Assembly: GCA_947085985.1 (NCBI GenBank)
Contig: CAMTYL010000004.1
Coordinates: forward strand, 150,885 to 214,884
Direction: 5' to 3'
Source of the DNA: an uncultured bacterium
GTDB taxonomy: Bacteria > Patescibacteriota > Minisyncoccia > Phycocordibacterales > Phycocordibacteraceae
DNA length: 64,000 nt
Part shown: one piece after another, positions 3,603 through 62,930 of the stretch
Position numbering within the stretch: position 1 is the first letter of the stretch
Layout of the letters: the number at the start of each line of letters is the position of its first letter
The notes under the pieces: generated by a model
Databases searched by the model: none
What the model was told of the DNA's origin: nothing
What the model saw: the letters and a program-made list of their open reading frames with translations, nothing else
Program-made: the position numbers and the translations under genes

Positions 3603-3604
3603 TC

Positions 3605-6179: not shown

Positions 6180-6191
6180 GGCCTCACTACA

Positions 6192-6731: not shown

Positions 6732-6783
6732 TGTTCAGTTGCTTGGTGTGGGCCCGTACCCACTTGAGCGGTATACTGTGTCT

Positions 6784-7776: not shown

Positions 7777-7780
7777 ACAT

Positions 7781-8635
7781 ATGCGAACACTACTCATACT
7801 TGTACTCTTGCTTGCGGTCACGGTGCCTTTTGTGGTGCTTGCTGAGCCTACAGACCCGGACAGGCCTGCCTTTGTTCCCCTCACCAGTATTCCTGGTATT
7901 GAAAGTGCTGGAAATGCAGACTCTCTGCCAGATTTTCTAAACAGTCTCTACCGTCTGGCGATTGGCCTGGCCGCAGTGCTGGCCGTGCTTCAAATTGTGC
8001 GTGCGGGCATTATGTATATGGGCGGAGACTCAGTGACGGAGAAGAAAGAGGCGAAAAGTCTCATTGCTTTGTCTATTGGTGGGTTAATTCTGATTCTTTC
8101 TCCCGTCGTTGTTTTTTCAGTCATAAACCCAGATATTCTGAGCCTTAAAATAAACGCTATTGGGGAGCTTAAACAAACCGAATTCGAAAGATACAAACAA
8201 GGCCAGGAAATTGGAGCGCGCACCGAGACATTGCTTTGGACAAATTCTTCACTTGCTCGCAGCGCTGCCGAAACAAAGTGTACGGCCGATGGTGGCGACA
8301 AGCTGGCATACGTTTGTAAGAAGCCGGATGGCACTACCCGGACCTTGGCCGCAAACCAAACGTGCGCCGCAGGAGAGATAACTACAAGTTTTTGCTACAA
8401 GACTGGAGGCACTGGTGGTGGCTCCGACAGCGAAACACAGAAGATGTGCGAGAAATATCATCGACAGATTGCGCCTTCTCCTGGATCGTGCTCTAAGCTT
8501 GCAGGCGAGGACTGGGCCTCAATTAATTCGGCCTGTTGCTTTGATGTAAAAACCGGCCAGCAGTGTTGCGGAAAAATAAAAGTTTCTCCAAACGAGCCTC
8601 CGCCCACTGGCCCCAACGTCAACCAACAGCAGTAG
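7781..8635 (+). CDS. VirB2/TrbC-like pilin candidate with Cys-rich C-terminal extension
   Basis: Signal peptide MRTLLILVLLLAVTVPFVVLA, then two hydrophobic helices separated by a short loop (LAIGLAAVLAVLQIVRAGIMYM...SLIALSIGGLILILSPVVVFSV), then a 130-aa tail with 12 Cys. Confidence 0.4.
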   Translation: MRTLLILVLLLAVTVPFVVLAEPTDPDRPAFVPLTSIPGIESAGNADSLPDFLNSLYRLAIGLAAVLAVLQIVRAGIMYMGGDSVTEKKEAKSLIALSIGGLILILSPVVVFSVINPDILSLKINAIGELKQTEFERYKQGQEIGARTETLLWTNSSLARSAAETKCTADGGDKLAYVCKKPDGTTRTLAANQTCAAGEITTSFCYKTGGTGGGSDSETQKMCEKYHRQIAPSPGSCSKLAGEDWASINSACCFDVKTGQQCCGKIKVSPNEPPPTGPNVNQQQ

Positions 8636-8637
8636 CC

Positions 8638-47260: not shown

Positions 47261-47707
47261 CTATCCGAGTTTTACGCGAACGGATTCGTGGTCTGGGGCT
47301 TCAACATCCCCCATAAGAAGATGGGCGTGTAAGTGCGCAACACTGCTTCCTGTGTATTTACTTTCACCAAAGCGCATAAAGAATGAGCCGCCCGGGATAG
47401 AAAAATGTTTTGTGGCCCATGACATAAGCGCGAACAAATCCCCAGTCTCTGTGGCAGTGAGCAAGGAAGGGTCCTCAATATGTGTTGGTTTATATACAAA
47501 AATGAAGTGATACTTCGTTCCTGCATACGGACTCATGTTCTCGGTGAAGTACCAGTAGTCAGTCTCCTTAAGAACTGGCTTTGGGTGATATGTAGAAAAA
47601 TACTCCTTGCAGAAAGGGCAAACCCCGTCCTGCTGGATTTGCTCCATTAGCTTTCTCTGTTCCTCGGTGCGTGCGTTCCCTATATTGAGCAGATGCGCCT
47701 TGCTCAT
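47261..47707 (-). CDS. HIT-family hydrolase
   Basis: HLHAHLL histidine triad. Confidence 0.75.
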   Translation of the reverse strand: MSKAHLLNIGNARTEEQRKLMEQIQQDGVCPFCKEYFSTYHPKPVLKETDYWYFTENMSPYAGTKYHFIFVYKPTHIEDPSLLTATETGDLFALMSWATKHFSIPGGSFFMRFGESKYTGSSVAHLHAHLLMGDVEAPDHESVRVKLG

Positions 47708-48588
47708 ACAGCGACAGGAATACCCTTAATTGGGTCGTGTGGCTCGTAGTCCGACAACTCGAAGTCGTCGGCGCGGTACGCAAAGACATCGTCTTTTTTG
47801 TTTACCATCGTAACTGTTGGAAGCCGTCGTGGCTCGCGCGCAAGCATTTCTTCCATCAAGGGAATCTGGTCAACATAGATGTGGGCGTCCGAAACACTGT
47901 GAACAAATTCATATGGCTCTGTTCCAGTCGCGTGAGCAATCATCATGAGTAGTGCCGCATACTGCACCATGTTGGATGGTACTCCAACAGGAAAGTCTGC
48001 CGAGCGCTGGAACATGTGGAGGGTCAGTTTGTTATTGATGATGCGTAAATGGATCCATCCATGACAAGGAGCAACAACTACTTTTTGTTGCTTTCCTTCA
48101 CCTCGAATTATGTACTGTGGAATCCAAGGAGAGATAAAGTGTGTTCGGAGGTGTGGGAACTCAATCATCTGCTCAATAATGTTCTGAATCTGGTTGTACG
48201 GCACTCCTTCTGCGGTGGGGAAATCGTGGAATGCGGCGCCATACGAACCTGGCCCCAAGTCACCCACATCTAAACCGCGCTTCGCGGCCTTCTCAGGAGT
48301 TCCCCAGGGTGTCCAAAATTTACAACCGAAAGCCTCAAGCTCTTCGAGTGTGCGTGCGCCGTTTATGAAAGCGCAGATTTCTCCAATTGAACCTTTCCAG
48401 AACCCTTTAATGCTCCGCTCAGTAATCATGGGGAACCCATTCTCAAGCTTGAAGTGCATTGGCGGTGGAGCAATCACTGTGAGTGCGTCCACTCCTTGCT
48501 GGCTTTTCACCACCTCGCCATTCTCCAAAATGTATCGAATACGGTCACGATACTGAGTGTCTGGTGCGCGCTCCGAGAATGGTTTCAT
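47704..48588 (-). CDS. thyA: thymidylate synthase
   Basis: PCHGWIHLRI, LHMFQRSADFPVGVPSNMVQYA motifs. ATG at 48588 gives 294 aa. The longer ORF-track form is antisense to dut. Confidence 0.9.
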   Translation of the reverse strand: MKPFSERAPDTQYRDRIRYILENGEVVKSQQGVDALTVIAPPPMHFKLENGFPMITERSIKGFWKGSIGEICAFINGARTLEELEAFGCKFWTPWGTPEKAAKRGLDVGDLGPGSYGAAFHDFPTAEGVPYNQIQNIIEQMIEFPHLRTHFISPWIPQYIIRGEGKQQKVVVAPCHGWIHLRIINNKLTLHMFQRSADFPVGVPSNMVQYAALLMMIAHATGTEPYEFVHSVSDAHIYVDQIPLMEEMLAREPRRLPTVTMVNKKDDVFAYRADDFELSDYEPHDPIKGIPVAV

Positions 48589-48642
48589 GAGGTAAATAGT
48601 AGCATCTGTGAGGGGTTGTGGCAGGGGTGGTAGAATCTCGGT

Positions 48643-49074
48643 ATGAAGGTCCAGATACGACGAAGTGACAAGGAGGTTGCGCTCCCAGAATATAAGACTT
48701 CCGGAGCTGCTGCTATGGACTGTGCTGTGCGAGAGGACGTGGTTATAGCACCTCGAAGCATTGGATACGCCCCACTTAATTTCTCGCTTAAGCCACCGCC
48801 CGGCCATTTCGTTATGATGGCCGCAAGAAGTTCTTTGCATAAGCGAGGGCTTATGATGGCAAACGGTGTAGCCATTTTTGACGAGGACTACTGTGGAGAC
48901 GAGGACGAATTTAAGGTGATTTTCTATAATTTTACTGACGAAGCAGTGGAGATTAAAAAGGGGGAACGAGTTACTCAAATAATGGTGATTCCCGTTGAGC
49001 GGACTGAGTTAGAAGAAGTTGGGTCGCTTGGAAGTCCTGCGCGAGGAGGAATTGGTTCTACCGGAAACACCTAA
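48643..49074 (+). CDS. dut: dUTP diphosphatase
   Basis: SGAAAMDCAV, RSSLHKRG and GDEDEF dUTPase motifs. Confidence 0.85.
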   Translation: MKVQIRRSDKEVALPEYKTSGAAAMDCAVREDVVIAPRSIGYAPLNFSLKPPPGHFVMMAARSSLHKRGLMMANGVAIFDEDYCGDEDEFKVIFYNFTDEAVEIKKGERVTQIMVIPVERTELEEVGSLGSPARGGIGSTGNT

Positions 49075-51017: not shown

Positions 51018-52718
51018 ATGGAAGACGCTATTAGAAAGGCTACAGAAACGGCGCTCGCTGAAGCGGGTGCTGAGAGCGTGACCTTTGCCGTTGAATGGCC
51101 AGCAGACCTCGCCCACGGTGACTACGCCGTGAATGCTGCTATGGCAGCCGCTAAGGGGCTTGGCAAGAATCCTCGCGAGTTGGCCGAGGCTCTCGCGCCA
51201 ACTATTGCGCGCGAGCTTGGTGCGCTTGCGGCAAGTGTAGAAGTGGCAGGACCTGGGTTCATAAATATTCGTCTATCAGCTTCTGCAGTCGCAGAGAGTC
51301 TCGTTGGCGCAACGGACAGTACGTGGGGAACGGGTACTGCGCGCGTGGCAGAGAAGATTGCATTTGAGTATTCGTGCCCGAATCCATTTAAGGAAATGCA
51401 CATCGGGCACCTGATGAGCACCGTCATTGGTGAGGCATGCTCGCGCATTATTGAGAGTCAGGGCGCGCGCGTCCTTCGCGACACATACGGGGGCGATGTT
51501 GGCCCACACGTGGCAAAGGCCATCTGGGCTCTTCAGAAGAAAGGAATTACTGAGCCCTCCACGGCGCGTGAGCTTGGAGATGCGTACACGCACGGTTCTC
51601 GTTCGTATGAAGAAAGCGAGACCGCAAAGATTGAAATTGATGCGCTCAACACCAGACTCTACCAAACACTCGCAAAAGATGAGGCGGAGCGAACGAGCGA
51701 GGACCGTGAGTTGCTAGAGCTGTGGCGCCACGGACGTGATGTTTCCTACGACGCGCACAAGAGCGTTTGGAAGTTGCTTGGAACAGAGTTTGATTACATC
51801 CTGCACGAAAGCGACACAACCCCAATCGGTATGCGGGTGGTGAATGACGGTCTTGCTAAGGGAGTGTTCGCAGAGAGTGAGGGTGCAGTGATTTATCGCG
51901 GAGAAGAGAAGGGTCTCCACACGCTCGTATTTATTACGAGCCGTGGCACGCCTACCTACGAAACAAAAGAAATGGGTCTTGCGTTTATGAAGGAGGAACA
52001 GTTGGGGCCGCTCGACCACTCCTACATCATGACTGCCGCAGAGCAGTCCGGACACTTTGCAGTATTTCTTGCAGCTCTTGAAGAAGTGGCACCAGAGCTG
52101 GCCCGCCACACCTATCACATGCCACACGGGTTCCTGCGCCTTACTACCGGCAAGATGTCGTCGCGCGAGGGAAGTGTCATTACTGCAAAGGAATTTCTTG
52201 AGGGACTTATTGAAAAGGCGAGCGAGCGAAACCCTGACCCGCTCATCAGTACACAGGTAGCAGTGGGTGCTGCGAAGTATTTGATACTGCGCCAAGCGCC
52301 AGGAGGGGACGTCATCTTTGATGTGGAGAAGTCACTGTCGCTTGATGGCGACTCGGGGCCATACCTGCAGTACGCACTTGTGCGCGCAAAGAGCATCCTC
52401 GCACAAGTCTCAACGAAGAATTCAGGAATGGGAAACACTACCATATATGGTAGTAATTCTGATGGTGAGATTGAAGTGCTTGCAAGAATGATTGCTCGAT
52501 TCCCGGAAGTGGTGCGCCGAGCGGAAGCACTTCAGGCACCGCATGCAATAACCCAATATCTCACTCAGCTCGCGAGCGAGTGGAACTCGTACTACGCGTC
52601 AGGAAAAATTATTGGAAGCACGGACGAGGAGAACAAGATTGCTCTCGTGAAAGCATTTGCAAGAACGATGGAGAACGGGCTCACGCTTCTTGGAATCCCA
52701 GCACCAGAGAGAATGTAG
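51018..52718 (+). CDS. argS: arginine--tRNA ligase
   Basis: HIGH motif (MHIGHLMSTVIG), KMSSR segment and C-terminal DALR anticodon-binding domain. Confidence 0.9.
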   Translation: MEDAIRKATETALAEAGAESVTFAVEWPADLAHGDYAVNAAMAAAKGLGKNPRELAEALAPTIARELGALAASVEVAGPGFINIRLSASAVAESLVGATDSTWGTGTARVAEKIAFEYSCPNPFKEMHIGHLMSTVIGEACSRIIESQGARVLRDTYGGDVGPHVAKAIWALQKKGITEPSTARELGDAYTHGSRSYEESETAKIEIDALNTRLYQTLAKDEAERTSEDRELLELWRHGRDVSYDAHKSVWKLLGTEFDYILHESDTTPIGMRVVNDGLAKGVFAESEGAVIYRGEEKGLHTLVFITSRGTPTYETKEMGLAFMKEEQLGPLDHSYIMTAAEQSGHFAVFLAALEEVAPELARHTYHMPHGFLRLTTGKMSSREGSVITAKEFLEGLIEKASERNPDPLISTQVAVGAAKYLILRQAPGGDVIFDVEKSLSLDGDSGPYLQYALVRAKSILAQVSTKNSGMGNTTIYGSNSDGEIEVLARMIARFPEVVRRAEALQAPHAITQYLTQLASEWNSYYASGKIIGSTDEENKIALVKAFARTMENGLTLLGIPAPERM

Positions 52719-52753
52719 GGTTGCAAATTCTTGAATACGTGCTACTATTAATT

Positions 52754-52981
52754 ATGCCGCGATTAACCGCGGTGTTCTTAATTGAGGGGGACATTTTGTC
52801 CGAGAGCTACGAAGACCAGCCGCACGGCAACACGAACCCGCGTCGGCGTGAGCCCACGCACAAGGGCCATGCTCAGAAGACGCTTGAGATGATCGCGCGC
52901 AATTCGGGTGGACGGCCCAAGCCGACCGCCGCGCAACAGCGTCTGCTGTTCGGCGAGTTCAGCTCGCTTCGTCGTCGCTAG
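52754..52981 (+). CDS. small hypothetical protein on GC-rich island 2 (ORF1)
   Basis: 75 aa. ATG 4 nt after a TACTAT box (leaderless-type). Basic C-terminus. Confidence 0.3.
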   Translation: MPRLTAVFLIEGDILSESYEDQPHGNTNPRRREPTHKGHAQKTLEMIARNSGGRPKPTAAQQRLLFGEFSSLRRR

Positions 52982-52998
52982 CGACAGGAGGAAGTCCA

Positions 52999-53235
52999 AT
53001 GGAACGACTTTGTTCACCCGAAGCGGTGGAACAACAAATTCGTTCCATTGGCTTCCCGGTCGCTCTTCATGCGGACGGGCCGAGCGGCATGACCGATCGG
53101 TACTACATCCGCAACGAAGAGTGCCTTCACGAACAAATCCTGCACGCCCTTGCGGCGGCAGAAAAAGACAAAGCGAACGGAGTCCTCGTACTCCCGTTCC
53201 CAAACTCCCGGCGGATGCCGGCCAGGCCTCCATAG
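52999..53235 (+). CDS. small hypothetical protein on GC-rich island 2 (ORF2)
   Basis: 78 aa. Strong AGGAGG RBS 8 nt upstream. Stop lies inside a terminator hairpin. Confidence 0.35.
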   Translation: MERLCSPEAVEQQIRSIGFPVALHADGPSGMTDRYYIRNEECLHEQILHALAAAEKDKANGVLVLPFPNSRRMPARPP

Positions 53236-53250
53236 TGGGGCCTGTTTCAT
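53222..53250 (+). terminator. intrinsic terminator
   Basis: CAGGCC-tccatagtgg-GGCCTG followed by TTTCATTTT. Confidence 0.55.
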
Positions 53251-53282
53251 TTTAGGTAGTAAAACGCTAGGATAGAGAAATC

Positions 53283-56200
53283 ATGGCCGAACAAGAGAAA
53301 TCAGAGCTTGTTGCAAGAGAAGAGGCAATACTCGCTTTTTGGAACAAAGAGCAGATTTTTGAGAAGACACTCACCAAGCCCGCGCCGAAGGGAGATTTTG
53401 TATTTTATGAGGGCCCACCAACTGCAAACGGGCGCCCTGGTATCCACCACCTAGAACCACGATCATTCAAGGACGCGCTTCCGCGCTACAAAACTATGCG
53501 TGGCTATCGTGTGCCGCGTCGCGCGGGGTGGGATACGCACGGTCTCCCGGTTGAGCTTGAGGTAGAGAAACAACTTGGCTTCAAGGGTAAGCAAGATATT
53601 GAGACGTACGGCATTGCGGCCTTCAACAAGAAGTGCCGCGAGAGCGTGCTGACCTATATTGATGAGTGGAAGGCGTTCACTGAGCGCATCGGCTACTGGG
53701 TAAACTTCAACACTGCCTACTTTACGTACAACGCTCCCTACATGGAGTCCCTGTGGAACATCATGAAGAAGGTAGACACTGATGGCAGGCTCTACAAGGA
53801 CTACAAAGTACTGCCGTGGTGTGTGAAGTGCGGGACAGCACTTTCTAGTCACGAACTCGCCCAAGGGTACGAGGATGTAAAGGATTTGTCGCTCACGGTG
53901 AAGTTCAAAGTGGTAGGTGAGGAGAATACCTACTTCCTCGCATGGACCACGACGCCGTGGACTCTGCCTGGGAATGTGGGGCTCGCGGTGGGGAAGGATG
54001 TTGTGTACGGAAAGTACACGAATAACGGAGAGACTGTCATTATTGCAAAAGCATTGGAGCGAAAGCTCGGTGAAGGGTGGGTGCTTGCTGAGGAAGTCGC
54101 TGGTAGTGAGCTTGTTGGAAAATCGTACGAGCCACTCTACCCATTTGCAAAGGACATTGCTGCAAAAACAGAAGTAGAAAAGTTTGCGAATGCATACAAA
54201 GTGTACGCGGCAGATTTCGTAACCACCGAAGACGGGACGGGTATCGTACACACCGCCGTCATGTACGGACAAGAAGATTTTGATTTGGGACAAAAGGTTG
54301 GTCTGCCAAAGGTGCACCTGGTAGCACCAGACGGCACCTTCGTACAAGGCACGGGAATGTTTGAAGGGAAGTCAGTCATTGATGCGGAAACAAATGTTGA
54401 GGTATTGAAGGACCTGCAGGCCCGCGGACTCTACTTCTCTAAGGAGAGTTACAACCACTCCTACCCACACTGTTGGCGCAGCAAGAACCGCCTCATCTAC
54501 TACGCACGCGATTCGTGGTACATCCGCATGCAGGATTTGCGCGATACGCTCATTGCGGAGAACAAGAAGATTAATTGGGAGCCCGCGCACATTCGTGACG
54601 GGCGAATGGGCGAGTGGCTTTCTAATGTAAAGGACTGGGCTATTAGTCGTGAGCGCTACTGGGGTACGCCGCTTCCCGTATGGCGAAGTGAAAATGGAGA
54701 AGAACAGCTGGTGATTGGTTCGGTAGAAGAGTTAAAGAAGTATACGAAGCGAAGCGGAAATCGGTACGTGGCTATGCGCCACGGGGAATCAGAGAACAAT
54801 GTCGCAAACATTGTGGACTGCACTAACGAGAAGAAGTGGCCGCTGACACAGAAGGGTCACGAGCAGGTACGCTCTGCCGCCGTTTCACTCAAAGAAAAGG
54901 GAATTGAACTGATTTACGCATCTCCGTTTGAGCGCGCACAAGAAACGGCGCGCGTAGTAGCGGCTGAGCTCGGTCTTTCCTTAGAAAGTATCGTCACTGA
55001 CGAGCGTATAAAGGAAATAAATGCAGGAACCCTTTGTGATAAATCACTAGACGAATTCCTAGCGTACCGTAAGGTGCATGCGTACGAAGAGCCGCTGCCG
55101 GGAGGCGAGAGTCATCTAGACGCGAAGCGTCGCTTTGGTGCTTTCTTGTACGACCTGGAGGAACAGCACGCGAACAAAACCATACTGATTGTCACGCACG
55201 GTATTGGGCTTGAGATGTTCATGCCGGTCATTGCGGGAAGTGATGCGCGCGCTACCCAGGCAATGGTAGAGAACGACCTGCCGGTAAATGCAGAAGTGCG
55301 CGAGCTTGATTTCGTGCCACTGCCACATAACGACGACTACGAGCTTGATCTGCACCGCCCATATATTGATGATGTAGTGCTCGTAAGTGAGAAGGGAACC
55401 AAGCTTCGCCGTGTAAAGGAGGTAATGGATGTCTGGTTTGACTCAGGCGCCATGCCCTTTGCACAGGCTCACTATCCGTTCGCAAAAGAGGCGCCAGCAT
55501 TTCCTGCCGACTTTATTTCAGAGGCTATTGATCAGACGCGTGGCTGGTTCTACACACTGCTTGCCGTTTCTGTATTGATGGGGAAGGGGACGCCATACCG
55601 AAACGTAATTTGTCTCGGACACTTGCTTGATGAGAAGGGAAAGAAGATGAGTAAGTCTTTGGGGAACGTCATTGTTCCAGCGGACGCTATTGCAACGTAT
55701 GGTGTGGATACGCTGCGCTTCTGGATGTACTACGTCAATCAGCCTGGCGACTCAAAGAACTTTGACGATAAGACCGTGCGCGAAGCCGCTCGTGTTATCT
55801 CGTGGCTAGATAACAGCGCCAAATTCTACGAACTCTTTGCAGCAGGAAGTCAGTCATCACAAAAGACCGCACTTGATGAATGGATGCTCGCGCGCACTAA
55901 TCAAACAGTGAAGACTGTAACGGAGGCCATGGACCGCTATGACCTCTACACAGCGTCGCGCACCATCGCGCTCTTGCTGGAAGATGTCTCGCAGTGGTAC
56001 GTGCGCCGTATTCGCGATAGAGCGCGCGACGGTGATGCTGCTGCACTTTCCACACTCCGCGAAACACTCAAGACCTGTGCTCTTCTCATTGCGCCACTTG
56101 CTCCGTTTGTGGCAGAAGATGTGTACCGAATTGTAAAGAGTACAGAGGACGCAGAGAGTGTGCATCTAGCTAACTGGCCTGAGGTACAGGCGGGTATCTT

Positions 56201-56627
56201 TGACGTACTTACTGGTAAGGGAAAGAAAGAAGCGGCACTTATAGAAGAAATGGTGCGCGTGCGCACGCTTACGTCAGAGGCACTGATGCTTCGCCAAAAA
56301 GCTGGAGCTAAGGTGCGGCAGCCGCTCGCATCACTTTCAATTGTTGGCGAACTTTCGCTGGAGATGCAAAGAATACTCGCAGACGAGCTTAATGTGAAGG
56401 AAATACGAACCGGTGCGAAGGAGCTCGCGCTTGATACGGTCCTTACCCCAGAACTTATTAAAGAGGGAGATGAGCGCACTCTTGCGCGAGCAGTTGCAGA
56501 GGCACGCAAAAGTGAGGGGTATGCACAGAAGGACCAGGTGAAGGTAGAGATGCGTGAGGACGGTGCGCACAGTGCAGAGATATCCAGTGGGGTGGTGAAG
56601 TTTTCTCTAATACGCGATGCGGCATAA
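53283..56627 (+). CDS. ileS: isoleucine--tRNA ligase carrying an inserted histidine-phosphatase (PGM-like) domain
   Basis: HIGH ([11 protein letters not shown]), editing-domain [19 protein letters not shown] and KMSKSLGN motifs. About 190 extra residues (494-680) have RHGESENN and IVTHG motifs. Confidence 0.9.
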
Positions 56628-57144
56628 GTACGTCACGCGAGCGGTGGTACTTGGTCGCGGTGCGGCTCGCGAGTCTGGGCTCATGCTCACGCTCCTGACC
56701 GAGGACTTCGGATTGGTGAGAGCAAAAGCCGAGGGTCTGCGAAAGCCTGGTGCAAAATTAGCGGGTGCGCTGCAAACACTCTGTGAGAGTGATGTCACCT
56801 TGGTGCGCGGCAAAGAAGGGTGGCGCCTTACGGGTGCTCTCTTGGTAGAGAATAGATTTCACACACTAGACAGTGATGCACGCGCCTGTGCAGCACGTAT
56901 TGCTTCACTGTTCCTGCGCTTGATGCCGGAGGGTCCGCAGGATGCGGGGTTTTTCAGTTTGTACCGCAGATTCCTCACAGATTTGGTGGGAGCACCCTCA
57001 GTAGAGCGAGACACTATAGAATGCAGAGCAGCGCTTGAGTTACTCATGCTCTTGGGGCTTGATACAGGGACTGATACGGTAAAGCTTGCGCGAAACGATA
57101 TGGTTGTTCGCATCAATAAAGGAATCGCCGCGTCAGGACTCTAG
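56617..57144 (+). CDS. recO: DNA repair protein RecO (short form)
   Basis: N-terminal OB-fold [36 protein letters not shown]. 175 aa. Confidence 0.65.
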
Positions 57145-57175
57145 AACACGTCGGTGCGCTATACTGGTGTGGTAT

Positions 57176-59068
57176 ATGCCACCGAATGCACCCAAGGAGA
57201 ACAGCAGCGCGCTTGAGGAGCTGCGTCAAAAGCTCTACGCAACGGATGCGCCACAGAGCTTCCCAGAGCAAGCCATACACGCACCCTCAGTGCACCAGGG
57301 TAGCGTAGAGGAGACCACTGCCTGGGCAGCCGAGGTGCCGAAAAGGAAAGTGGCCTGGTCGGTGATGTTTCTTTTTGGTGCAATCGGGGTATTTGTATTG
57401 GCGCTTGCCATAGCTGCGTATTTCCTCGTATTTGGTGGCGGCGCCGTATCCACTGACAATGTTGAGATTACGGTGGCACCTATTCCATCACTACGTAGTG
57501 GCGATGTCGCGCCTCTTTTGGTAACGATTAAAAACAATAACCCAACGCCAATGGTTGGTGCGGTACTCTCCGCGTCGTTTCCTGAGACAGCGCGTTCTGC
57601 AGATGACCATACAATTCCGTATCCCCGATATGAAGACATGGTGGGGGATATAGCACCAGGGGCCGCGATTACGCGCACGGTGCGCGTGGTGCTCTCGGGT
57701 GCCGAGGGAGATGTGTTCAGTATCCCCCTAAAGGTGGAGTACAAAACAGAAGGCTCCAATGCCACATTCGTGAAAGATGATAGTCACGATGTCACCATCA
57801 CCTCCTCGCCCCTGTCGGTGCGCGTAGTTGCTCCAGTGCAAGCAACAGCAGGACAGGACATCACGCTACAAGTATTTATCCGCTCAGACGCTCCGACCGC
57901 GCTTGAAAATATCGTGGTATTTGCTGAATACCCGTTTGGTTTCATTCCGGCAAAAACAGGACTCTCAACAACGCTCTTTGATGTGGGCACCATTTCCCCT
58001 GGACAGGAGGTTTCCGTGAATGTGCAGGGAACATTGTCCGGAGAGGACATGGACGAACGAGTCTTTCGGTTTAAGGTGGGTACCCGCGGAGCGCAGGGAG
58101 CGCTTGGTGTTACCTACGCGTTTGGGCAGGGAAGTGTAGGACTGTCCAACCCATTCCTCGCTACTACGTTTGCCGTGAACGGGAACCGCGGGACGGATTT
58201 GGTGGTGCCAGTGGGTGAGTCAAACTCGGTAAGTGTGGAGTGGGTTAATAGTTTGCCTCAAGAGCTTACCGATGCTCGCATAACAGTGAAGCTTGCCGGA
58301 GACGTACTTGACCCGTCGTCCGTGGTAGTTGCTGGAGGCTTCTACCGCTCAGTGGACCAGACAATCATTTTTGGGCGAGAAACAAATGCTACGCTCGCTC
58401 GTCTTACTTCGGGCACAAAGGGCTCCGGGTCCTTCACCTTCAGGACAAAACAGATTGACTCTATTCGTGCACTTCGCAATCCAACCATTGCCGCAACGGT
58501 GACGGTGTCAGGGCGAAGTAGTAAGGATGGAAACACACCCGTATTGAATACAGCCACCATAAACCGCACCATTCAGATAGGTACTGATTTAGGCTTCAAC
58601 TCGTACTCTTCGCGAACAACAGGGCCGTTTACAAACACAGGTCCTGTTCCACCGAAAGCCAACACGGAAAGCACCTACACCATATTTTTTGACTTTACCT
58701 CAACCGTTAATTCCGTAGCAGGTGCCACCGCAAAGGGAGTGCTTCCGCCGTATGTCAGGTTTGTGGGCGCCACGAGCCCAAACGATGGTTCAATCACCTT
58801 TGACGAGAACACCAGAACGGTAACGTGGGCAGCAGGAGAAGTGACCGCCGGAACCACAAGCGCCGCGCCGAAGCGGGGTGCGTTCCAGGTTGCACTCTTG
58901 CCAAGCTTCTCCCAACAGGGTACAAGTCCAATACTGATGTCCTTCGTCTCGTACAGTGCGACTGACCGTTTTACCAAGCGTCTGCTTGAGGGGCGGGGCC
59001 AGGATGTGTCTACCCAGACACTGCGCGACCCTGGCTTTGTAAGTGCGCAGGGAGAAGTAGCACGATAA
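57176..59068 (+). CDS. large membrane-anchored surface protein with repeated beta domains (DUF11/CARDB-like)
   Basis: TM anchor WSVMFLFGAIGVFVLALAIAAYFLVF after a short cytoplasmic N-terminus. Repetitive T/S/V-rich Ig-like segments. Confidence 0.5.
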   Translation: MPPNAPKENSSALEELRQKLYATDAPQSFPEQAIHAPSVHQGSVEETTAWAAEVPKRKVAWSVMFLFGAIGVFVLALAIAAYFLVFGGGAVSTDNVEITVAPIPSLRSGDVAPLLVTIKNNNPTPMVGAVLSASFPETARSADDHTIPYPRYEDMVGDIAPGAAITRTVRVVLSGAEGDVFSIPLKVEYKTEGSNATFVKDDSHDVTITSSPLSVRVVAPVQATAGQDITLQVFIRSDAPTALENIVVFAEYPFGFIPAKTGLSTTLFDVGTISPGQEVSVNVQGTLSGEDMDERVFRFKVGTRGAQGALGVTYAFGQGSVGLSNPFLATTFAVNGNRGTDLVVPVGESNSVSVEWVNSLPQELTDARITVKLAGDVLDPSSVVVAGGFYRSVDQTIIFGRETNATLARLTSGTKGSGSFTFRTKQIDSIRALRNPTIAATVTVSGRSSKDGNTPVLNTATINRTIQIGTDLGFNSYSSRTTGPFTNTGPVPPKANTESTYTIFFDFTSTVNSVAGATAKGVLPPYVRFVGATSPNDGSITFDENTRTVTWAAGEVTAGTTSAAPKRGAFQVALLPSFSQQGTSPILMSFVSYSATDRFTKRLLEGRGQDVSTQTLRDPGFVSAQGEVAR

Positions 59069-59078
59069 CCAGAACACC

Positions 59079-60416
59079 ATGTCCAAGAAAATAGAATCTT
59101 TAGAGCCTATCGTTTCCCTCGCAAAGCGTCGCGGTTTCATATACCCGGGCTCCGATATTTATGGCGGCTTGGCAGGAACGTTTGACTACGGCCCCCTTGG
59201 CGTCGCGCTAAAGGACAATGTAAAGAAAATCTGGTGGCGTATGTTTGTTGAGACGCGCGACGACATGTACGGTGTAGACGCTGCTATTTTAATGAATCCA
59301 AAAGTGTGGGAAGCATCTGGTCACGTATCAGGATTCTCTGACCCTCTAGTTGAATGTTCAAATTGTAAGAAGCGCTTCCGTGCCGACCACCTGGAAAATG
59401 CAGACACCTGTCCTGCCTGCCAAAAGAAGGGAACCCTTGGAGAAGCCCGCCAATTCAACATGATGTTTGCTACAAAGGCGGGTGCCATGGAGGACGAGTC
59501 CGCCACAGTGTATCTGCGTCCAGAAACCGCAGCAGGCATGTTTGTGAACTTCAAGAATGTAATTGATTCGTTCCACCCAAAGCTGCCGTTTGGACTAGGG
59601 CAAATTGGAAAAGCATTTCGCAATGAAATAGCCCCGCGTGATTTCATTTTCCGTCTGCGCGAGCTGGAGCAAATGGAAGTGGAGTATTTTGTGCGCGAAA
59701 GCGACTGGGAGCGCGCGTTTGCTGAATGGCAGGAGAAAATGCACGAATTTGCACGCGCAATTGGCCTTCCCGGCGAGGCGCTTCACGAGCTTGAAGTAGA
59801 GTCGCAAGACTTGGCGCACTACTCAAAGCGCACCATTGATTTTGAGTTCGACTATCCATTTGGGCGCAAAGAGCTCTGGGGTCTTGCATACCGCACGGAC
59901 TTTGACCTCCTGGCCCACGAGAAAGGCTCAACGGTAAGCCTCAACTACCTTGATGAAGAATCAGGAGAACGATTTACACCGCACGTGATAGAACCATCGC
60001 TTGGTGTGGACCGCACCGTGCTCGCGATACTTTCAAGCGCATACTGCGAAGACGAGCTTGGTGGGGAAGTGAGAAGCTATTTGAAGCTCGCGCCGTCAGT
60101 GGCGCCTGTCAAGGCAATGGTGTCGCCCCTTCTCAAGAACAAGCCAGAACTTGTAGAGAAGGCAAAAGAGGTGAGAAAGAAGCTGCAGACGGTACACCCA
60201 GCTATTGCGTGGGACGACAACGGAAATATTGGCAAGCGATACCGAAGACAGGACGAAATTGGCACGCCATTTTGTATTACCGTTGACTTTGACACCCTTG
60301 GTGAGAAACCAGAGCTTCTAAACACCGTTACGCTTCGCCACCGCGACACTGGAGAGCAGGAGCGGCTTACTGTGGACGAGGTAGTGGAGCGAATTCGTCA
60401 GGCGAGCGTATACTAA
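59079..60416 (+). CDS. glyQS: glycine--tRNA ligase (dimeric class II type)
   Basis: RGFIYPGSDIYGGLAGTFDYGPLG and RPETAAGMFVNF motifs. 445 aa. Confidence 0.85.
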   Translation: MSKKIESLEPIVSLAKRRGFIYPGSDIYGGLAGTFDYGPLGVALKDNVKKIWWRMFVETRDDMYGVDAAILMNPKVWEASGHVSGFSDPLVECSNCKKRFRADHLENADTCPACQKKGTLGEARQFNMMFATKAGAMEDESATVYLRPETAAGMFVNFKNVIDSFHPKLPFGLGQIGKAFRNEIAPRDFIFRLRELEQMEVEYFVRESDWERAFAEWQEKMHEFARAIGLPGEALHELEVESQDLAHYSKRTIDFEFDYPFGRKELWGLAYRTDFDLLAHEKGSTVSLNYLDEESGERFTPHVIEPSLGVDRTVLAILSSAYCEDELGGEVRSYLKLAPSVAPVKAMVSPLLKNKPELVEKAKEVRKKLQTVHPAIAWDDNGNIGKRYRRQDEIGTPFCITVDFDTLGEKPELLNTVTLRHRDTGEQERLTVDEVVERIRQASVY

Positions 60417-60420
60417 AGAC

Positions 60421-61479
60421 ATGAGCACCGAGACGCGCATTGCTATCACAACCGGCACCTTCCTACGGGCTATTTTGATCGGTGGGCTTGCGTACGCGGC
60501 GTGGATTCTGCGGGACCTATTCTTGCTTGTGCTCACGGCGATAGTTATCGCCTCGGCAATCGAGCCTGGGGTGGCATTTTTTGTAAAGCGTCGGATTCCG
60601 CGCGCTATCGCCGTGCTCGGTATGTATGGCATGGTGTTCGGGTCATTATTTGCCGTTACGTATTTGTTCTTGCCTCCTGTACTAAACGATGCGCAGACAT
60701 TCCTACAGGCTGCTCCTGAATACCTAGATACGCTCCATGTGCCAGCCTCGCTCACCAATATCACTGACGCTGCGCATGACGCAACGTCCAATCAGTCGCA
60801 GTCCATCTTTGAAACTATCCTCTCATTCCAGTCTGCATTCTCTGATACGTCTGGCGGAACGGTGCGCGTGCTCTCCACGTTCTTTGGTGGTATCTTCGCT
60901 CTTCTGCTGGTGATTGTGTTGTCTTTCTACTTTGCACTGCAGGAGACTGGTGTGGACGACTTCCTCCGTCTTATCACCCCCGCTAAGCACGAGGAGTATG
61001 TGGTGAATCTGTGGGTGCGCGCAAAGAAAAAGATTGGACAATGGATGCAGGGCCAGTTGCTCCTGTCACTTTTGGTGGGAATCATTGTGTATCTCGGTCT
61101 CCTTATTCTGGGAGTACCGTACGCACTTTTCTTGGCGGTCGCGGCAGCACTTTTGGACCTTATTCCGCTGTTCGGTTCATTCCTTGCAGGAATTCTCGGC
61201 GTGGTAGTCGCTTTCTCTTCCGGTGGTTTCACCCTCGCGCTTATCGTGGCGGGCCTCTATTTCATTGTGAATCAGTTTGAGGCGCACCTTATCTATCCAT
61301 TAGTAGTGAACAAGGTGGTGGGTATACCTCCGCTTCTCGTGATTCTCTCACTCATTATTGGAGGAAGTCTTGCGGGCTTCCTCGGTATCCTGCTTTCTAT
61401 TCCTATTGCAGCTGGACTTCGTGAGTTCTTGAATGACTTTGATAAGTCTAAGCAGCGCGCACGAGACCTGGTGCTGTAG
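60421..61479 (+). CDS. AI-2E family transporter (PerM/UPF0118)
   Basis: Eight predicted TM helices. Conserved C-terminal LLSIPIAAGLREF. Confidence 0.75.
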   Translation: MSTETRIAITTGTFLRAILIGGLAYAAWILRDLFLLVLTAIVIASAIEPGVAFFVKRRIPRAIAVLGMYGMVFGSLFAVTYLFLPPVLNDAQTFLQAAPEYLDTLHVPASLTNITDAAHDATSNQSQSIFETILSFQSAFSDTSGGTVRVLSTFFGGIFALLLVIVLSFYFALQETGVDDFLRLITPAKHEEYVVNLWVRAKKKIGQWMQGQLLLSLLVGIIVYLGLLILGVPYALFLAVAAALLDLIPLFGSFLAGILGVVVAFSSGGFTLALIVAGLYFIVNQFEAHLIYPLVVNKVVGIPPLLVILSLIIGGSLAGFLGILLSIPIAAGLREFLNDFDKSKQRARDLVL

Positions 61480-61490
61480 CAAACAAGCCT

Positions 61491-62930
61491 ATGGCAAGGT
61501 ACCTCACAACCACACTCCCGTATGTAAACGACGAACCGCATCTGGGCTTTGCACTTGAGAGTGTGTACGCAGATGTGCTCGCGCGCGCGTGGCGCTTGGC
61601 AGGAGAAGACGTCTTTTTTTCAACAGGCACCGACGAACACGGGCAAAAAATATTTGAAGCCGCACAGAAGAAGGGACAACATGTGCAAGAGTATGTAGAT
61701 TTCTATGCTTCAAGAGTTGAAGGACTAAAAGACGTACTTGCTCTCACGCCAGACAACTTTATTCGCACCTCAAGTGAGGCGCACAAACAAGCCGCGCAGG
61801 AGATGTGGCGACGCTGCGACGCTGCAGGAGACATATATAAGAAAGCCTATTCTGGTACGTACTGTGTTGGGTGCGAGGCGTACAAAACCGAAAAGGATTT
61901 GACTCCAGAGGGCACCTGCGAACTGCACCCAAGCACACCCGTCCAAATCATTGAAGAAGAGAACTACTTTTTTCGTCTCTCAAAGTACCAGCAGGACCTA
62001 GAAGAGTATCTTTCGCACGAAGGGGTAATTATTCCTGAGTGGCGCCGTCAGGAAGCACTCAATTTTGTACGAGGCGGACTAGAGGATTTCAGCATCTCTC
62101 GCTCTAAAGAAAAACTGACTTGGGGGATTTCTGTGCCTGGAGACGATGAGCAAGTGATGTATGTCTGGTTTGACGCGCTTACCGACTACATTTCAACACT
62201 AGGCTGGCCAGAGGACGCGCAGGGGAACTATAAGAAATTCTGGGAAGAGGGAAGCACCGTGCAGGTGGCAGGGAAGGACCAGGTGCGGTTCCAGTCAGTT
62301 ATGTGGCAGGCCATGCTTATGTCCGCACAGATTAAGACTACCGACCAGGTGTTCTATCACGGCTTCATCAACTCAAACGGGCAACGTATGAGCAAGTCCA
62401 CCGGCAACGTTATTAGCCCGTACGAGCTGGTAGAGAAGTATGGGGTGGACGCGACCCGCTACTTGCTCCTTCGTCACGTGCATCCAACCGAAGACTCCGA
62501 CATAACCTGGGAGCGACTAGATGAGTGGTACACCGCTCACTTGGTGAACGGACTTGGGAACTTGGTATCGCGCGTAATGAAGCTTGCGCAGGAACATTTG
62601 CCAGGCCCAGTGTCACTGGTTGATTTGGGTCACACCATAGACCCTACATTTTTTACGCGTCTTGAAGCATTCTCATTCCAGGAGGCCATGAATGAAATTT
62701 TTGCTCTTGTTGGAGAGGGGGACGAGTTCATGACAAGAGAGGAGCCGTTCAAAAAAATTAAGGTAGAGGATACAGAAGGCATTGCACGAGCTGATATTGC
62801 AAAGCTTGTGAGCGATGTTGCACGCATCGCCCTATATCTTGCGCCGTTCATGCCGAGCACGAGTGTGCGGATATTAGACGCAGTACATACAAACACCAAG
62901 CCTGAAAACCTTTTCCCGCGCCTTCCATAA
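61491..62930 (+). CDS. metG: methionine--tRNA ligase
   Basis: PYVNDEPHLGF (HIGH-region variant), zinc knuckle CVGCEAY...CELHPS and QRMSKSTGN. Confidence 0.85.
   Translation: MARYLTTTLPYVNDEPHLGFALESVYADVLARAWRLAGEDVFFSTGTDEHGQKIFEAAQKKGQHVQEYVDFYASRVEGLKDVLALTPDNFIRTSSEAHKQAAQEMWRRCDAAGDIYKKAYSGTYCVGCEAYKTEKDLTPEGTCELHPSTPVQIIEEENYFFRLSKYQQDLEEYLSHEGVIIPEWRRQEALNFVRGGLEDFSISRSKEKLTWGISVPGDDEQVMYVWFDALTDYISTLGWPEDAQGNYKKFWEEGSTVQVAGKDQVRFQSVMWQAMLMSAQIKTTDQVFYHGFINSNGQRMSKSTGNVISPYELVEKYGVDATRYLLLRHVHPTEDSDITWERLDEWYTAHLVNGLGNLVSRVMKLAQEHLPGPVSLVDLGHTIDPTFFTRLEAFSFQEAMNEIFALVGEGDEFMTREEPFKKIKVEDTEGIARADIAKLVSDVARIALYLAPFMPSTSVRILDAVHTNTKPENLFPRLP

What the first reader, a model, noticed from the sequence alone, without database searches (positions are those of the whole stretch)
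53283..56627. IleRS with an embedded histidine-phosphatase (phosphoglycerate-mutase-like) domain
A ~190-residue insert (about 54762-55310) has the RHG catalytic signature [10 protein letters not shown] and a second His motif ILIVTHG. It sits between the [10 protein letters not shown] core element and the DLHRPYID / DVWFDSG segment that precedes KMSKS. All canonical IleRS motifs are intact in one 1114-aa frame. An aminoacyl-tRNA synthetase carrying an intact phosphatase fold is unusual. It could act on a phosphorylated ligand or tRNA end, or be a moonlighting fusion.
Basis: partly seen in the sequence, partly recalled or inferred. Interest (0 to 1): 0.7.

Follow-up and report, generated by a model that had tools for sequence, protein, structure and literature searches.

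The report
IleRS with nested histidine phosphatase
This candidate-phyla-radiation bacterium, like thousands of its relatives, carries a complete and apparently active phosphatase enzyme built into a surface loop of its isoleucyl-tRNA synthetase; the pairing also exists as two adjacent genes in related lineages and has not been described or explained.

Summary
ORF 53283-56627 (+) encodes a 1114-aa type-2 IleRS with all synthetic and editing motifs. A 188-residue branch-1 histidine phosphatase (Pfam His_Phos_1, E=9e-30) is inserted cleanly in the CP3 subdomain (residues 490-677, nt 54750-55313).

It is not a chimera:
- All 120 best homologs (62-95% identity, independent assemblies) have the insert.
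- So do 38 Patescibacteria species-representative genomes.
- Every catalytic residue (R499, H500, R551, E578, H639) is invariant.
- dN/dS is about 0.08.

New context:
- The same phosphatase subfamily occurs free-standing (about 189 aa). In 6 of 7 informative cases it lies immediately upstream of an insert-less ileS, usually directly after argS.
- It also occurs in tandem, at a second IleRS loop, nested in ValRS, and fused to TsaC.
- One close syntenic ortholog (L039) has lost it cleanly, so it is dispensable for aminoacylation.

Best reading (about 0.5): an active PhoE/PspA-like phosphomonoesterase that partners IleRS; the substrate is unknown. Main rival (about 0.35): an autonomous housekeeping phosphatase hitch-hiking in a permissive loop. 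It is phosphatase-type, not a mutase. No paper describing it was found.

The parts
53283..56627 (+). Whole gene: type-2 isoleucyl-tRNA synthetase (1114 aa) with a nested histidine phosphatase
   Evidence: The AF2 model has pLDDT 87.9 and pTM 0.80, and its best PDB match is IleRS2 8C8V.
53436..53459 (+). HIGH-region motif PGIHHLEP (type-2 'G-I/V-H-H' variant)
   Evidence: The same variant is aligned in P. megaterium IleRS2. H56 is invariant in 121 homologs.
53946..54257 (+). CP1 editing-domain signature motifs [10 protein letters not shown] and GTGIVHTA
   Evidence: These residues are invariant or nearly invariant in alignment A1.
54636..54665 (+). CP2-CP3 linker [10 protein letters not shown], which lines the tRNA CCA pocket in yeast IleRS
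   Evidence: PMC7955072, read.
54666..54749 (+). N-terminal half of the CP3 subdomain (TPLPVW...[11 protein letters not shown])
   Evidence: Domain limits come from PMC7191050 and PMC7955072, transferred by the alignment.
54750..55313 (+). Nested branch-1 histidine phosphatase domain (residues 490-677)
   Evidence: Pfam PF00300 E=8.7e-30. HMM envelope 54750-55310. Boundaries set against the insert-less ortholog L039. pLDDT is 91-98. Fold matches PspA, Rv2419c, PhoE and CobC at TM 0.73-0.79.
54777..54785 (+). RHG motif: R499 and the predicted nucleophile H500
   Evidence: Invariant in 121 close homologs, 16 diverse homologs and 83 domain copies of all architectures. Aligned to R9/H10 of PhoE.
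54933..54935 (+). R551, the second phosphate-binding arginine (S-P-x-x-R motif)
   Evidence: Invariant.
55014..55016 (+). E578, the predicted general acid/base
   Evidence: At least 90% conserved, invariant, and E (D in 3) in all 83 copies.
55017..55103 (+). Substrate-cap segment (residues 579-607), the most variable part of the insert
   Evidence: Majority-residue frequency 0.45, against 0.80-0.84 for the IleRS catalytic core. The segment is deleted in some IleRS variants.
55197..55199 (+). H639, the second catalytic histidine (ILIVTHG)
   Evidence: Invariant.
55314..55427 (+). C-terminal half of CP3 ([19 protein letters not shown]...)
   Evidence: This segment is retained in the insert-less orthologs L039 and L040.
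55428..55658 (+). Second half of the Rossmann fold, from DVWFDSG to KMSKS
   Evidence: Invariant.
55875..56324 (+). Anticodon-binding domain (Pfam Anticodon_1, residues 865-1014)
52719..53282 (.). argS-ileS spacer: the position where other CPR lineages encode the free-standing phosphatase. No remnant is detectable here.
   Evidence: Searches show the gene at this position elsewhere. Searches find no remnant.

Best explanation
Shown: this is a real single-polypeptide type-2 IleRS of a Patescibacteria (Paceibacteria-like) genome. Its CP3 subdomain hosts a complete, folded and selectively maintained branch-1 histidine phosphatase. The domain belongs to a CPR-wide subfamily of small (about 189 aa) phosphatases. 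In other lineages that subfamily is a separate gene wedged between argS and ileS, 1-11 bp from (or overlapping) the ileS start in most cases.

By homology: the domain works as a phosphomonoesterase. H500 attacks the phosphate to form a phospho-histidine intermediate. R499, R551 and H639 hold the phosphoryl group, and E578 protonates the leaving group. It lacks the tail and the family scores of true mutases.

Inferred: it is an accessory enzyme of the synthetase. It is kept at 1:1 stoichiometry with IleRS, and in the nested form it is physically beside the catalytic body. It acts on a phosphorylated species tied to the adenylate-forming/tRNA-charging cycle rather than on central metabolism. My ranking of substrates is: (1) a small nucleotide-type phosphomonoester or by-product (AMP or another NMP, less likely PPi); (2) a phosphate blocking the tRNA 3' end; (3) a phosphorylated protein.

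The domain is not needed for aminoacylation chemistry itself, because a close ortholog lost it cleanly.
For: Identity and reality.

Conservation: all 120 best homologs carry PF00300. So do 38 Patescibacteria species-representative loci and three independent assemblies of close relatives.

Selection: the catalytic residues are invariant across 121 close homologs, 16 diverse homologs and 83 mixed copies, while the rest of the domain varies. dN/dS is 0.08, against 0.03-0.05 in the core.

Partnership:
- Free-standing members P0249, P0240, P0260, P0244 and P0235 come from different 50%-identity clusters. Each sits directly upstream of an insert-less ileS, and four of them directly follow argS. P0216 also follows argS.
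- Peregrinibacteria/Peribacteria carry tandem double inserts.
- A second insertion site exists after residue 863.
- The domain is nested at the homologous site of a complete ValRS (P0246, 948 bits).
- It is fused to the adenylate-forming TsaC.
- No simple N-terminal fusion appears among the 150 best representatives, although loss of a stop codon would make one.
- The operon sits in a translation gene cluster: smpB-infC-rpmI-rplT-argS-hp-ileS-recO.

Phosphatase rather than mutase.
Against: - L039 is a syntenic ortholog nested among insert-bearing IleRS in the core tree. It lacks the domain and has no phosphatase gene in its 12-kb locus. The coupling is therefore dispensable.
- CPR proteins fuse promiscuously. 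TsaC alone is found fused to MGMT, TruB, 2H-phosphoesterase, NUDIX, GNAT and a glycosylase. Fusion is therefore weaker evidence here than elsewhere.
- The argS-hp-ileS order could be one inherited arrangement rather than repeated selection.
- Two different IleRS loops host the domain, which argues against a need for precise geometry.
- Net charge ranges from -15 to +20 and is -9 here, and the cap is highly variable. Neither feature points to a defined substrate or to RNA binding.
- All characterised structural neighbours are metabolic small-molecule phosphatases.
- No coordinates were available, so I could not measure the distance between H500 and the synthetic or editing sites.
- The partner survey started from the IleRS insert, so it is biased towards its closest relatives.
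Confidence: 0.5

Rival explanations
1. Hitch-hiker. The domain is an autonomous housekeeping phosphatase (PhoE/PspA-like, broad or metabolic specificity) with no biochemical link to aminoacylation. It started as the gene upstream of ileS in a compact operon. It was then copied into CP3, a variable, solvent-exposed and permissive loop. It persists because the cell needs the phosphatase, not because IleRS does.
For: - Clean loss in the syntenic ortholog L039, with IleRS otherwise intact.
- An abundant free-standing form, at least 325 clusters.
- P0127 is a free-standing gene that still carries a CP3-like tail. That is consistent with fission and continued usefulness on its own.
- Promiscuous CPR fusions.
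- CP3 is variable in topology and peripheral (PMC7191050 and PMC13439101).
- Two different host loops.
- All structural neighbours are small-molecule phosphatases.
Against: The same subfamily is tied to class Ia synthetases in at least four arrangements: adjacent gene, CP3-nested, second-site, and ValRS-nested. Among the 150 nearest representatives the only partners are IleRS, ValRS and TsaC. The mechanistically easy N-terminal fusion is not seen. Multiple copies per synthetase are hard to explain by co-expression alone.
Confidence: 0.35
2. Repair or antidote module. The phosphatase removes a phosphate or pyrophosphate that blocks charging. The block could be on the tRNA 3' end (3'-phosphate left by RNase damage, or toxin-installed pyrophosphate on A76) or on the synthetase itself (toxin kinase). 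This would add a third 'quality-control' site to IleRS and ValRS.
For: - CP3 starts directly after the linker that lines the CCA pocket.
- The pattern resembles conflict-type evolution: patchy presence and loss, copy-number variation, a fast-evolving or deleted cap giving an open SixA-like pocket, and widely varying surface charge.
- The partners are tRNA enzymes.
Against: I found no precedent for a branch-1 histidine phosphatase acting on RNA ends. The domain is acidic here. The free-standing and TsaC-fused forms have no obvious access to a tRNA 3' end. The second insertion site is far along the chain from the catalytic half. The gene behaves as core, operon-embedded housekeeping, not as an island gene.
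Confidence: 0.1
3. Non-catalytic domain. The fold serves as a structural spacer, a phosphate/ligand sensor, or a docking surface in CP3. CP3 does serve as a docking surface in vertebrate IARS1.
For: CP3 is a protein-docking surface in human IARS1 (PMC13439101). The G residues of the RHG and HG motifs are not strictly conserved.
Against: The nucleophile His, both Arg, the second His and the acid/base Glu are invariant in every copy examined, including both copies of the two-copy enzymes. A pure binding or scaffold role would not preserve E578.
Confidence: 0.04
4. Artefact: an assembly chimera or mis-join that places a phosphatase gene inside ileS.
For: None was found. The only relevant point is that the window is a metagenome-style sequence.
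Against: There is one uninterrupted frame with uniform composition. The same architecture is present in more than 120 protein clusters from NCBI, JGI, ENA and Logan assemblies, and on contigs up to 686 kb. It is also found in 38 species-representative genomes.
Confidence: 0.01

Closest known systems
Type-2 (eukaryote-like, mupirocin-resistant class) IleRS, e.g. Priestia megaterium IleRS2 (PDB 8C8U/8C8V/8C8W) and Thermus thermophilus IleRS (1ILE)
   Same: Full-length homology: E=5e-225 to 8C8W and TM 0.74/0.80 to 8C8V. It has the same G-V/I-H-H variant of HIGH, KMSKS, the CP1 editing motifs, the anticodon-binding domain and the C-terminal DUF5915 region.
   Different: It carries 188 extra residues in CP3, between positions equivalent to 478 and 480 of 8C8W. 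The window protein has also lost the CxxC...CxxC zinc knuckle that flanks this point in T. thermophilus IleRS and in some insert-bearing relatives.
Small phosphatase-type branch-1 histidine phosphatases: PhoE/YhfR of Geobacillus stearothermophilus (1EBB, 1H2E), PspA phosphoserine phosphatase of Hydrogenobacter (4IJ5), Rv2419c, CobC, riboflavin-pathway HFP (9MMH)
   Same: It has the same fold (TM 0.73-0.79), the same catalytic constellation aligned residue by residue, a similar size, and no mutase tail.
   Different: Identity is only 19-24%, and it falls below every curated family cut-off. It is nested inside another enzyme. The cap region is not conserved, so no substrate can be transferred by homology.
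NCBIfam NF040702 'isoleucine--tRNA ligase, N-acetyltransferase domain-containing' (ileS_w_GNAT)
   Same: It is a precedent for an IleRS that carries an additional catalytic domain.
   Different: The extra domain is different (GNAT versus histidine phosphatase). The window protein scores 317 bits against a cut-off of 1999. I did not examine where the GNAT sits.
PRK07238 bifunctional RNase H / acid phosphatase (Rv2228c type)
   Same: A branch-1 histidine phosphatase is fused to a nucleic-acid enzyme. It is one of the better NCBIfam hits for the insert (63-67 bits).
   Different: That fusion is end-to-end rather than nested, and the partner is different. The score is far below the cut-off of 326.
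Free-standing CPR histidine phosphatases encoded between argS and ileS (e.g. P0249, P0240, P0260; public names 'histidine phosphatase family protein' / 'broad specificity phosphatase PhoE')
   Same: They belong to the same subfamily: 31-38% identity, a shared N-x-Y-x3-R-H-G start and the same catalytic set. They have the same partner gene and the same syntenic block.
   Different: They are a separate polypeptide, and the downstream IleRS (931-963 aa) has an ordinary CP3 with a zinc knuckle. They are uncharacterised, so they give no functional annotation.

Membership tests
Isoleucyl-tRNA synthetase (TIGR00392 ileS) | Whole-protein score above the curated equivalog cut-off | tested here: met
   825.3 bits against a cut-off of 621.4, split into two stretches by the insert.
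Isoleucyl-tRNA synthetase (TIGR00392 ileS) | Class I signature motifs (HIGH-type and KMSKS) and the second-half Rossmann motifs | tested here: met
   [25 protein letters not shown] and KMSKS were located and are invariant among 121 homologs.
Isoleucyl-tRNA synthetase (TIGR00392 ileS) | CP1 editing domain with Thr-rich and GTG-x-V-H motifs | tested here: met
   [10 protein letters not shown] and GTGIVHTA are present and conserved.
Isoleucyl-tRNA synthetase (TIGR00392 ileS) | Charges tRNA-Ile with isoleucine | not testable with these tools
   This needs an aminoacylation assay.
Type-2 IleRS | Closer to IleRS2/eukaryote-like enzymes than to type-1 bacterial IleRS | tested here: met
   E=5e-225 to P. 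megaterium IleRS2 and 3e-215 to T. thermophilus IleRS, against 1e-94 to S. aureus type 1 and 7e-92 to P. megaterium IleRS1. The fold ranking agrees.
Mupirocin-resistance IleRS MupA/MupB (NF000257/NF000258) | Score above the exception-model cut-off | tested here: not met
   700 and 697 bits against a cut-off of 1900.
Histidine phosphatase superfamily, branch 1 (Pfam PF00300) | Score above the gathering threshold | tested here: met
   104.3 bits (107.7 for the insert alone) against a threshold of 21.7.
Histidine phosphatase superfamily, branch 1 (Pfam PF00300) | Catalytic core: RHG Arg+His, second Arg, acid/base Glu, second His | tested here: met
   R499, H500, R551, E578 and H639 are present. 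They align to the PhoE catalytic residues and are invariant.
Histidine phosphatase superfamily, branch 1 (Pfam PF00300) | Alpha/beta fold of the superfamily | tested here: met
   The AF2 module has pLDDT 91-98 over the domain. Foldseek gives E=3e-15 to PspA and TM 0.73-0.79 to several members.
Histidine phosphatase superfamily, branch 1 (Pfam PF00300) | Phosphoryl-transfer activity through a phospho-histidine | not testable with these tools
   This needs an enzyme assay with an H500A control.
Cofactor-dependent phosphoglycerate mutase (dPGM: TIGR01258, NF038349 and PRK models) | Score above curated cut-offs | tested here: not met
   NF038349 scores 82.6 against 225. TIGR01258 scores 38.1 against 81.7. 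All PRK dPGM models are far below their cut-offs.
Cofactor-dependent phosphoglycerate mutase (dPGM: TIGR01258, NF038349 and PRK models) | C-terminal tail needed for mutase rather than phosphatase activity (established knowledge of dPGM) | tested here: not met
   The domain ends at its last beta-strand and runs straight into CP3 (VPLPHN...). Free-standing members end at the same strand.
Alpha-ribazole phosphatase CobC (TIGR03162) / phosphoserine phosphatase PspA (NF045917) / SixA (TIGR00249) | Score above curated cut-offs | tested here: not met
   56-61 against 162.9; 55-60 against 350; 35-38 against 74.5.
IleRS with GNAT domain (NF040702) | Score above the exception-model cut-off | tested here: not met
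   317 bits against 1999.

The most novel reading that the evidence does not exclude
The nested phosphatase is a third functional site of the synthetase. It would be a repair or antidote activity that removes a phosphate or pyrophosphate blocking the tRNA 3' end, or a phosphate placed on the synthetase itself by a toxin kinase. CPR IleRS and ValRS would then restore their own substrate or themselves to a chargeable state. Such an activity would be a new kind of aaRS quality control, evolving under conflict-type pressure (patchy loss, copy-number changes, a hypervariable or deleted cap).
Probability: 0.1. Interest if true: 0.85.

Novelty: new variant of a known kind. Interest (0 to 1): 0.66.

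Why it matters
Aminoacyl-tRNA synthetases are among the best-studied enzymes, and their added domains usually mark added functions. Here a complete second enzyme sits inside the catalytic half of IleRS across a large part of the Patescibacteria. These are organisms with minimal genomes, where retained domains are rarely idle.

The same phosphatase is tied to ileS as a neighbouring gene in sister lineages, and it recurs inside ValRS. That pattern gives a concrete, testable hypothesis: tRNA charging in these bacteria involves, or is coupled to, a dephosphorylation step that is unknown in model organisms.

If the coupling is real, it reveals new aaRS biology and a CPR-specific vulnerability. If it is not, it is a clear natural example of how a permissive loop (CP3) can accept a whole enzyme. 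That would be useful for domain-insertion engineering.

It also explains why annotation pipelines label many of these proteins only as 'class I tRNA ligase family protein'.

Tried and rejected
1. Assembly chimera. Rejected.

2. Phosphoglycerate mutase identity. Rejected: all dPGM cut-offs are missed and there is no tail.

3. Decayed phosphatase gene in the window's 565-bp argS-ileS spacer. tblastn and a maximum-sensitivity HMM search of all six frames, in the window and in two relatives, found nothing. Rfam also found nothing there.

4. TsaC-phosphatase fusion as a pointer to a shared PPi/AMP chemistry. Kept only as weak evidence. There are just four clusters, and CPR TsaC is fused to many unrelated enzymes.

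5. RNA-binding surface. Net charge is not conserved.

6. Phylogeny of domain copies, to count transfer events. The NJ tree is star-like and unresolved. The IleRS-core tree resolves L039 as nested among insert-bearing forms, but it is unreliable at depth because Bacteroidota outgroups fall inside it.

7. Geometry of the phosphatase pocket relative to the synthetic/editing sites. Not possible, because models are returned without coordinates.

8. AFDB search for named entries. The library was unavailable.

9. Literature. Eight searches on IleRS/aaRS plus histidine phosphatase/CPR/fusion found no description (one search was rejected for syntax).

10. P0127 as an artefact of a broken ileS. Rejected: its upstream gene is unrelated. 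It does rest on a single 951-bp contig.

11. Not verified: P0125 (a ValRS N-half followed by four phosphatase copies) could not be checked on its contig. Three insert-bearing loci carry non-CPR bin names (L008, L014, L024), and I did not verify those names.
Full report
**Observation**

The window holds a single ORF at 53283-56627 (+) of 1114 aa. Base composition is uniform across the region.

Pfam splits tRNA-synt_1 around a His_Phos_1 match: E=8.7e-30, residues 498-658, and E=7.7e-31 for the insert alone. It also finds Anticodon_1 and DUF5915. NCBIfam gives TIGR00392 ileS at 825 bits, above the 621 cut-off.

The two editing-domain signatures are present as well.

Against solved structures, the protein is a type-2 IleRS: E=5e-225 to P. 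megaterium IleRS2 and 3e-215 to T. thermophilus IleRS, against about 1e-94 to type-1 enzymes. The two aligned halves abut at residues 478 and 480 of 8C8W, so the extra 190 residues are a clean insertion.

**Where the insert sits**

Published domain limits place CP3 at residues 459-526 of yeast IleRS and 473-534 of C. albicans IleRS. CP3 comes directly after the WxISRxRYWG linker that lines the tRNA-CCA/reveromycin pocket (PMC7955072 and PMC7191050).

Our residue 488 aligns to about yeast residue 492, so the phosphatase is nested in the middle of CP3. CP3 differs in topology between IleRS lineages. It carries a zinc knuckle in T. thermophilus and is a docking surface in human IARS1. Some insert-bearing relatives keep the CxxC...CxxC knuckle on either side of the insert; the window protein has lost it.

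**Not an artefact**

- All 120 best homologs (62-95% identity; NCBI, JGI, ENA and Logan assemblies; contigs up to 686 kb) carry PF00300.
- A scan of species-representative genomes returned 38 insert-bearing loci. Their names are Patescibacteria, Paceibacteria, Yanofsky-, Nomura- and Wolfebacteria, Spechtbacterales, Minisyncoccia, 'Saccharibacteria' and Peregrinibacteria/Peribacteria. Three carry odd bin labels that I did not verify.
- Close relatives at 89% and 78% identity, from three assemblies, show the same gene calls.

**The domain is a maintained enzyme**

- In 121 close homologs the invariant positions of the insert are N493, R499, H500, T522, G525, S547, R551 and H639, and E578 is at least 90% conserved.
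- In 16 diverse junction regions (36-55% identity), R499, H500, R551, E578, E609 and H639 are invariant.
- In 83 domain copies of every architecture, R499, H500, S547, R551 and H639 are kept without exception. E578 is replaced only by D, in three copies.
- These residues align to the catalytic residues of PhoE.
- For the closest DNA pair, dN/dS is 0.08 in the insert against 0.03-0.05 in the IleRS core. dS is near saturation, so these are rough values.
- The substrate-cap segment (579-607) is the most variable part (majority-residue frequency 0.45). It is deleted in a few IleRS variants.
- AF2 models are confident: full length pLDDT 87.9 and pTM 0.80, with the domain at 91-98.
- The nearest solved folds are small phosphatase-type members (PspA, Rv2419c, TIGAR, PhoE, CobC and the riboflavin-pathway HFP) at TM 0.73-0.79 and 19-24% identity.
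- It misses every curated subfamily cut-off (dPGM, CobC, PspA, SixA). It ends at the last strand without a mutase tail.

It is therefore phosphatase-type and of a distinct subfamily.

**Wider distribution of the subfamily**

A search of 1.84 billion representative proteins with the insert alone gave 11,044 hits at E≤1e-3 and 36 at E≤1e-30. I classified the best 150.

- Most are IleRS, or fragments of IleRS, with the domain at the same site. Their cores are down to about 35-40% identical to ours.
- Several IleRS have two copies. The second copy is either in tandem in CP3 (all six Peregrinibacteria/Peribacteria loci with partial query coverage) or at a second site after residue 863, the loop before the first anticodon-binding helix.
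- P0246 is a complete ValRS (948 bits against a cut-off of 704) with the domain at the homologous post-WG-P-P-W position. P0176 is a ValRS fragment with the domain.
- P0125 is a ValRS N-half followed by four copies. I could not verify it on its contig.
- Four Patescibacteria clusters fuse the domain to TsaC/YrdC.
- A free-standing form of about 189 aa is abundant: at least 325 clusters, named only 'histidine phosphatase family protein', 'PhoE' or 'putative phosphoglycerate mutase', from Staskawiczbacteria and other Parcubacteria. It shares the N-x-Y-x3-RHG start, so N493 belongs to the subfamily and not to an IleRS interface.

**Gene neighbourhood: the key new result**

| Free-standing gene | Locus | Arrangement |
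|---|---|---|
| P0249 | L083-L085 | argS 4341-5999, phosphatase 6001-6573, insert-less ileS 6583-9471, one unannotated gene, then recO |
| P0240 | L087/L088 | argS 3303-4997, phosphatase 5001-5570, ileS 5572-8367, one unannotated gene, then recO |
| P0260 | L082 | ileS starts 11 bp downstream; argS lies further upstream |
| P0244 | L089 | argS C-terminus upstream; the ileS N-terminus overlaps the end of the gene |
| P0235 | L092/L093 | ileS 119 bp downstream |
| P0216 | L090 | follows argS, with no ileS after it |
| P0127 | L081 | not next to a synthetase on its 951-bp contig; keeps a CP3-like tail (FVFEPRAVNQDYE), suggesting fission from a nested copy |

Each of these genes represents a different 50%-identity cluster. 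Thus 6 of 7 informative cases are adjacent to ileS.

The block is the same one as in the window: SHMT-CYTH-argS-[spacer]-ileS-recO-membrane protein-glyS. The downstream IleRS in those lineages has an ordinary zinc-knuckle CP3.

**Loss**

L039 shares the ileS-recO-membrane protein-glyS order. Its GlyRS is 74.6% identical, the highest of all loci, and its IleRS flanks are 64% and 52% identical. It falls as sister to the window plus L001, inside an insert-bearing clade of the IleRS-core tree.

Yet its CP3 reads ...KYLKPG-SSMPRNKKGEIDLHKPYIDD..., with no insert and no phosphatase gene in 12 kb. The simplest reading is a precise secondary loss, so the domain is dispensable for aminoacylation.

**Interpretation**

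What is shown:
- The gene is a real, widespread nested-domain IleRS.
- The guest domain is a catalytically competent phosphatase under purifying selection.
- The phosphatase and ileS are linked in at least two genomic configurations, and the domain recurs in ValRS.

What follows by homology is phospho-histidine chemistry through H500, with R499, R551 and H639 holding the phosphoryl group and E578 as the general acid.

What is inferred is a functional partnership with the synthetase. I put that at about 0.5, because the arguments pull in both directions.

For the partnership:
- conserved, tightly spaced gene order within a translation gene cluster;
- several independent physical unions with class Ia synthetases;
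- multiple copies per enzyme;
- absence of the easy N-terminal fusion.

Against it:
- clean loss in L039;
- promiscuous CPR fusions (TsaC is also fused to MGMT, TruB, 2H phosphoesterase, NUDIX, GNAT and a glycosylase);
- two different host loops;
- unconserved surface charge (-15 to +20, and -9 here);
- purely metabolic known relatives;
- the bias of a survey that started from the IleRS insert.

The substrate cannot be assigned. I rank a small nucleotide-type phosphomonoester or by-product first, a blocking phosphate on the tRNA 3' end second, and a phosphoprotein third. No precedent for the second was found in the literature library.

The main rival (0.35) is an autonomous housekeeping phosphatase that moved from the upstream gene position into a permissive loop.

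**Comparison with what is known, and novelty**

Both halves belong to well-known families. IleRS with an extra catalytic domain has a curated precedent (NF040702, IleRS with GNAT). Histidine phosphatases fused to nucleic-acid enzymes also exist (RNase H/acid phosphatase, PRK07238).

A phosphatase nested in CP3 of IleRS or ValRS, and its operonic twin, were not found in eight literature searches. Public annotations are generic. I therefore rate it a new variant of a known kind (an aaRS with an accessory domain), with moderate-to-high interest.

**Limits**

- No atomic coordinates were available, so no distances could be measured.
- The AFDB library was unavailable.
- Trees are neighbour-joining on saturated data.
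- The genome scan was truncated at 600 rows.
- Whole-genome presence or absence of other phosphatases and of ppa could not be examined.

Noticed in passing
window 52719-53282: The argS-ileS spacer is unusually long (565 bp) and GC-rich (0.57-0.60). Relatives keep a 624-653 bp spacer, but only the ends are conserved. The 5' end has a hairpin CCGCGATTAACCGCGG followed by a T-run, which looks like an argS terminator. The 3' end has a T-rich element and the ileS ribosome-binding site. There is no Rfam match and no phosphatase remnant, although this is where other lineages encode the free-standing phosphatase.
   Followed up: partly
window 52999-53235 (+): A small ORF of 78 aa (MERLCSPEAVEQQIRSIGFPVALHADGPSGMTDRYY...ANGVLVLPFPNSRR) lies inside the spacer. 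It has a recognisable homolog in L096/L097 (80-aa gene at 6713-6955) and has no Pfam match. It is possibly a real small protein cotranscribed with ileS.
   Followed up: partly
proteins P0274-P0387: In Patescibacteria the TsaC/YrdC domain (t6A pathway) is fused to a wide range of small enzymes. The most common partner is the methylguanine-DNA methyltransferase domain PF01035. Others are TruB, 2H/cyclic phosphodiesterase, NUDIX, GNAT and methylpurine glycosylase. This is a striking hub of fusions.
   Followed up: no
L032, L033, L035-L038 (IleRS at about 4600-8560): Peregrinibacteria/Peribacteria IleRS carry two tandem phosphatase domains in CP3, giving proteins of about 1465-1490 aa. Both copies are catalytically intact in the representatives examined.
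   Followed up: partly
proteins P0146, P0388, P0389: These IleRS variants have a nested phosphatase that lacks the cap segment (profile positions about 91-124). That leaves a minimal, SixA-like open active site.
   Followed up: no
protein P0125: This 1161-aa protein is a ValRS N-terminal half followed by four histidine-phosphatase repeats. It could be a genuine multi-copy form or a truncated or misassembled gene.
   Followed up: no
L096/L097 719-4668: In a 78%-identical relative, an MmeI-type restriction-modification gene and a SocA_Panacea/HTH gene are inserted between SHMT and argS. This is a defence islet inside the otherwise conserved translation cluster.
   Followed up: no
window 47704-48978 (-): The thymidylate synthase ORF as listed starts about 140 residues upstream of the Pfam domain (the match begins at residue 141). 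This is either an N-terminal extension or an over-long TTG start call.
   Followed up: no
window 51018-62930: Four aaRS genes are clustered within 12 kb: ArgRS at 51018, IleRS at 53283, GlyRS at 59079, and a short (479 aa) MetRS-like gene at 61491. They are interleaved with recO, a 660-aa membrane or surface protein with no Pfam match, and an AI-2E transporter. The order is conserved across many Paceibacteria loci.
   Followed up: partly
L081 (P0127, 287-928): This free-standing phosphatase is the closest such protein to the window's insert (44% identity). It still ends with a CP3-like segment (FVFEPRAVNQDYE), which suggests gene fission out of an IleRS. It is a single 951-bp contig.
   Followed up: partly
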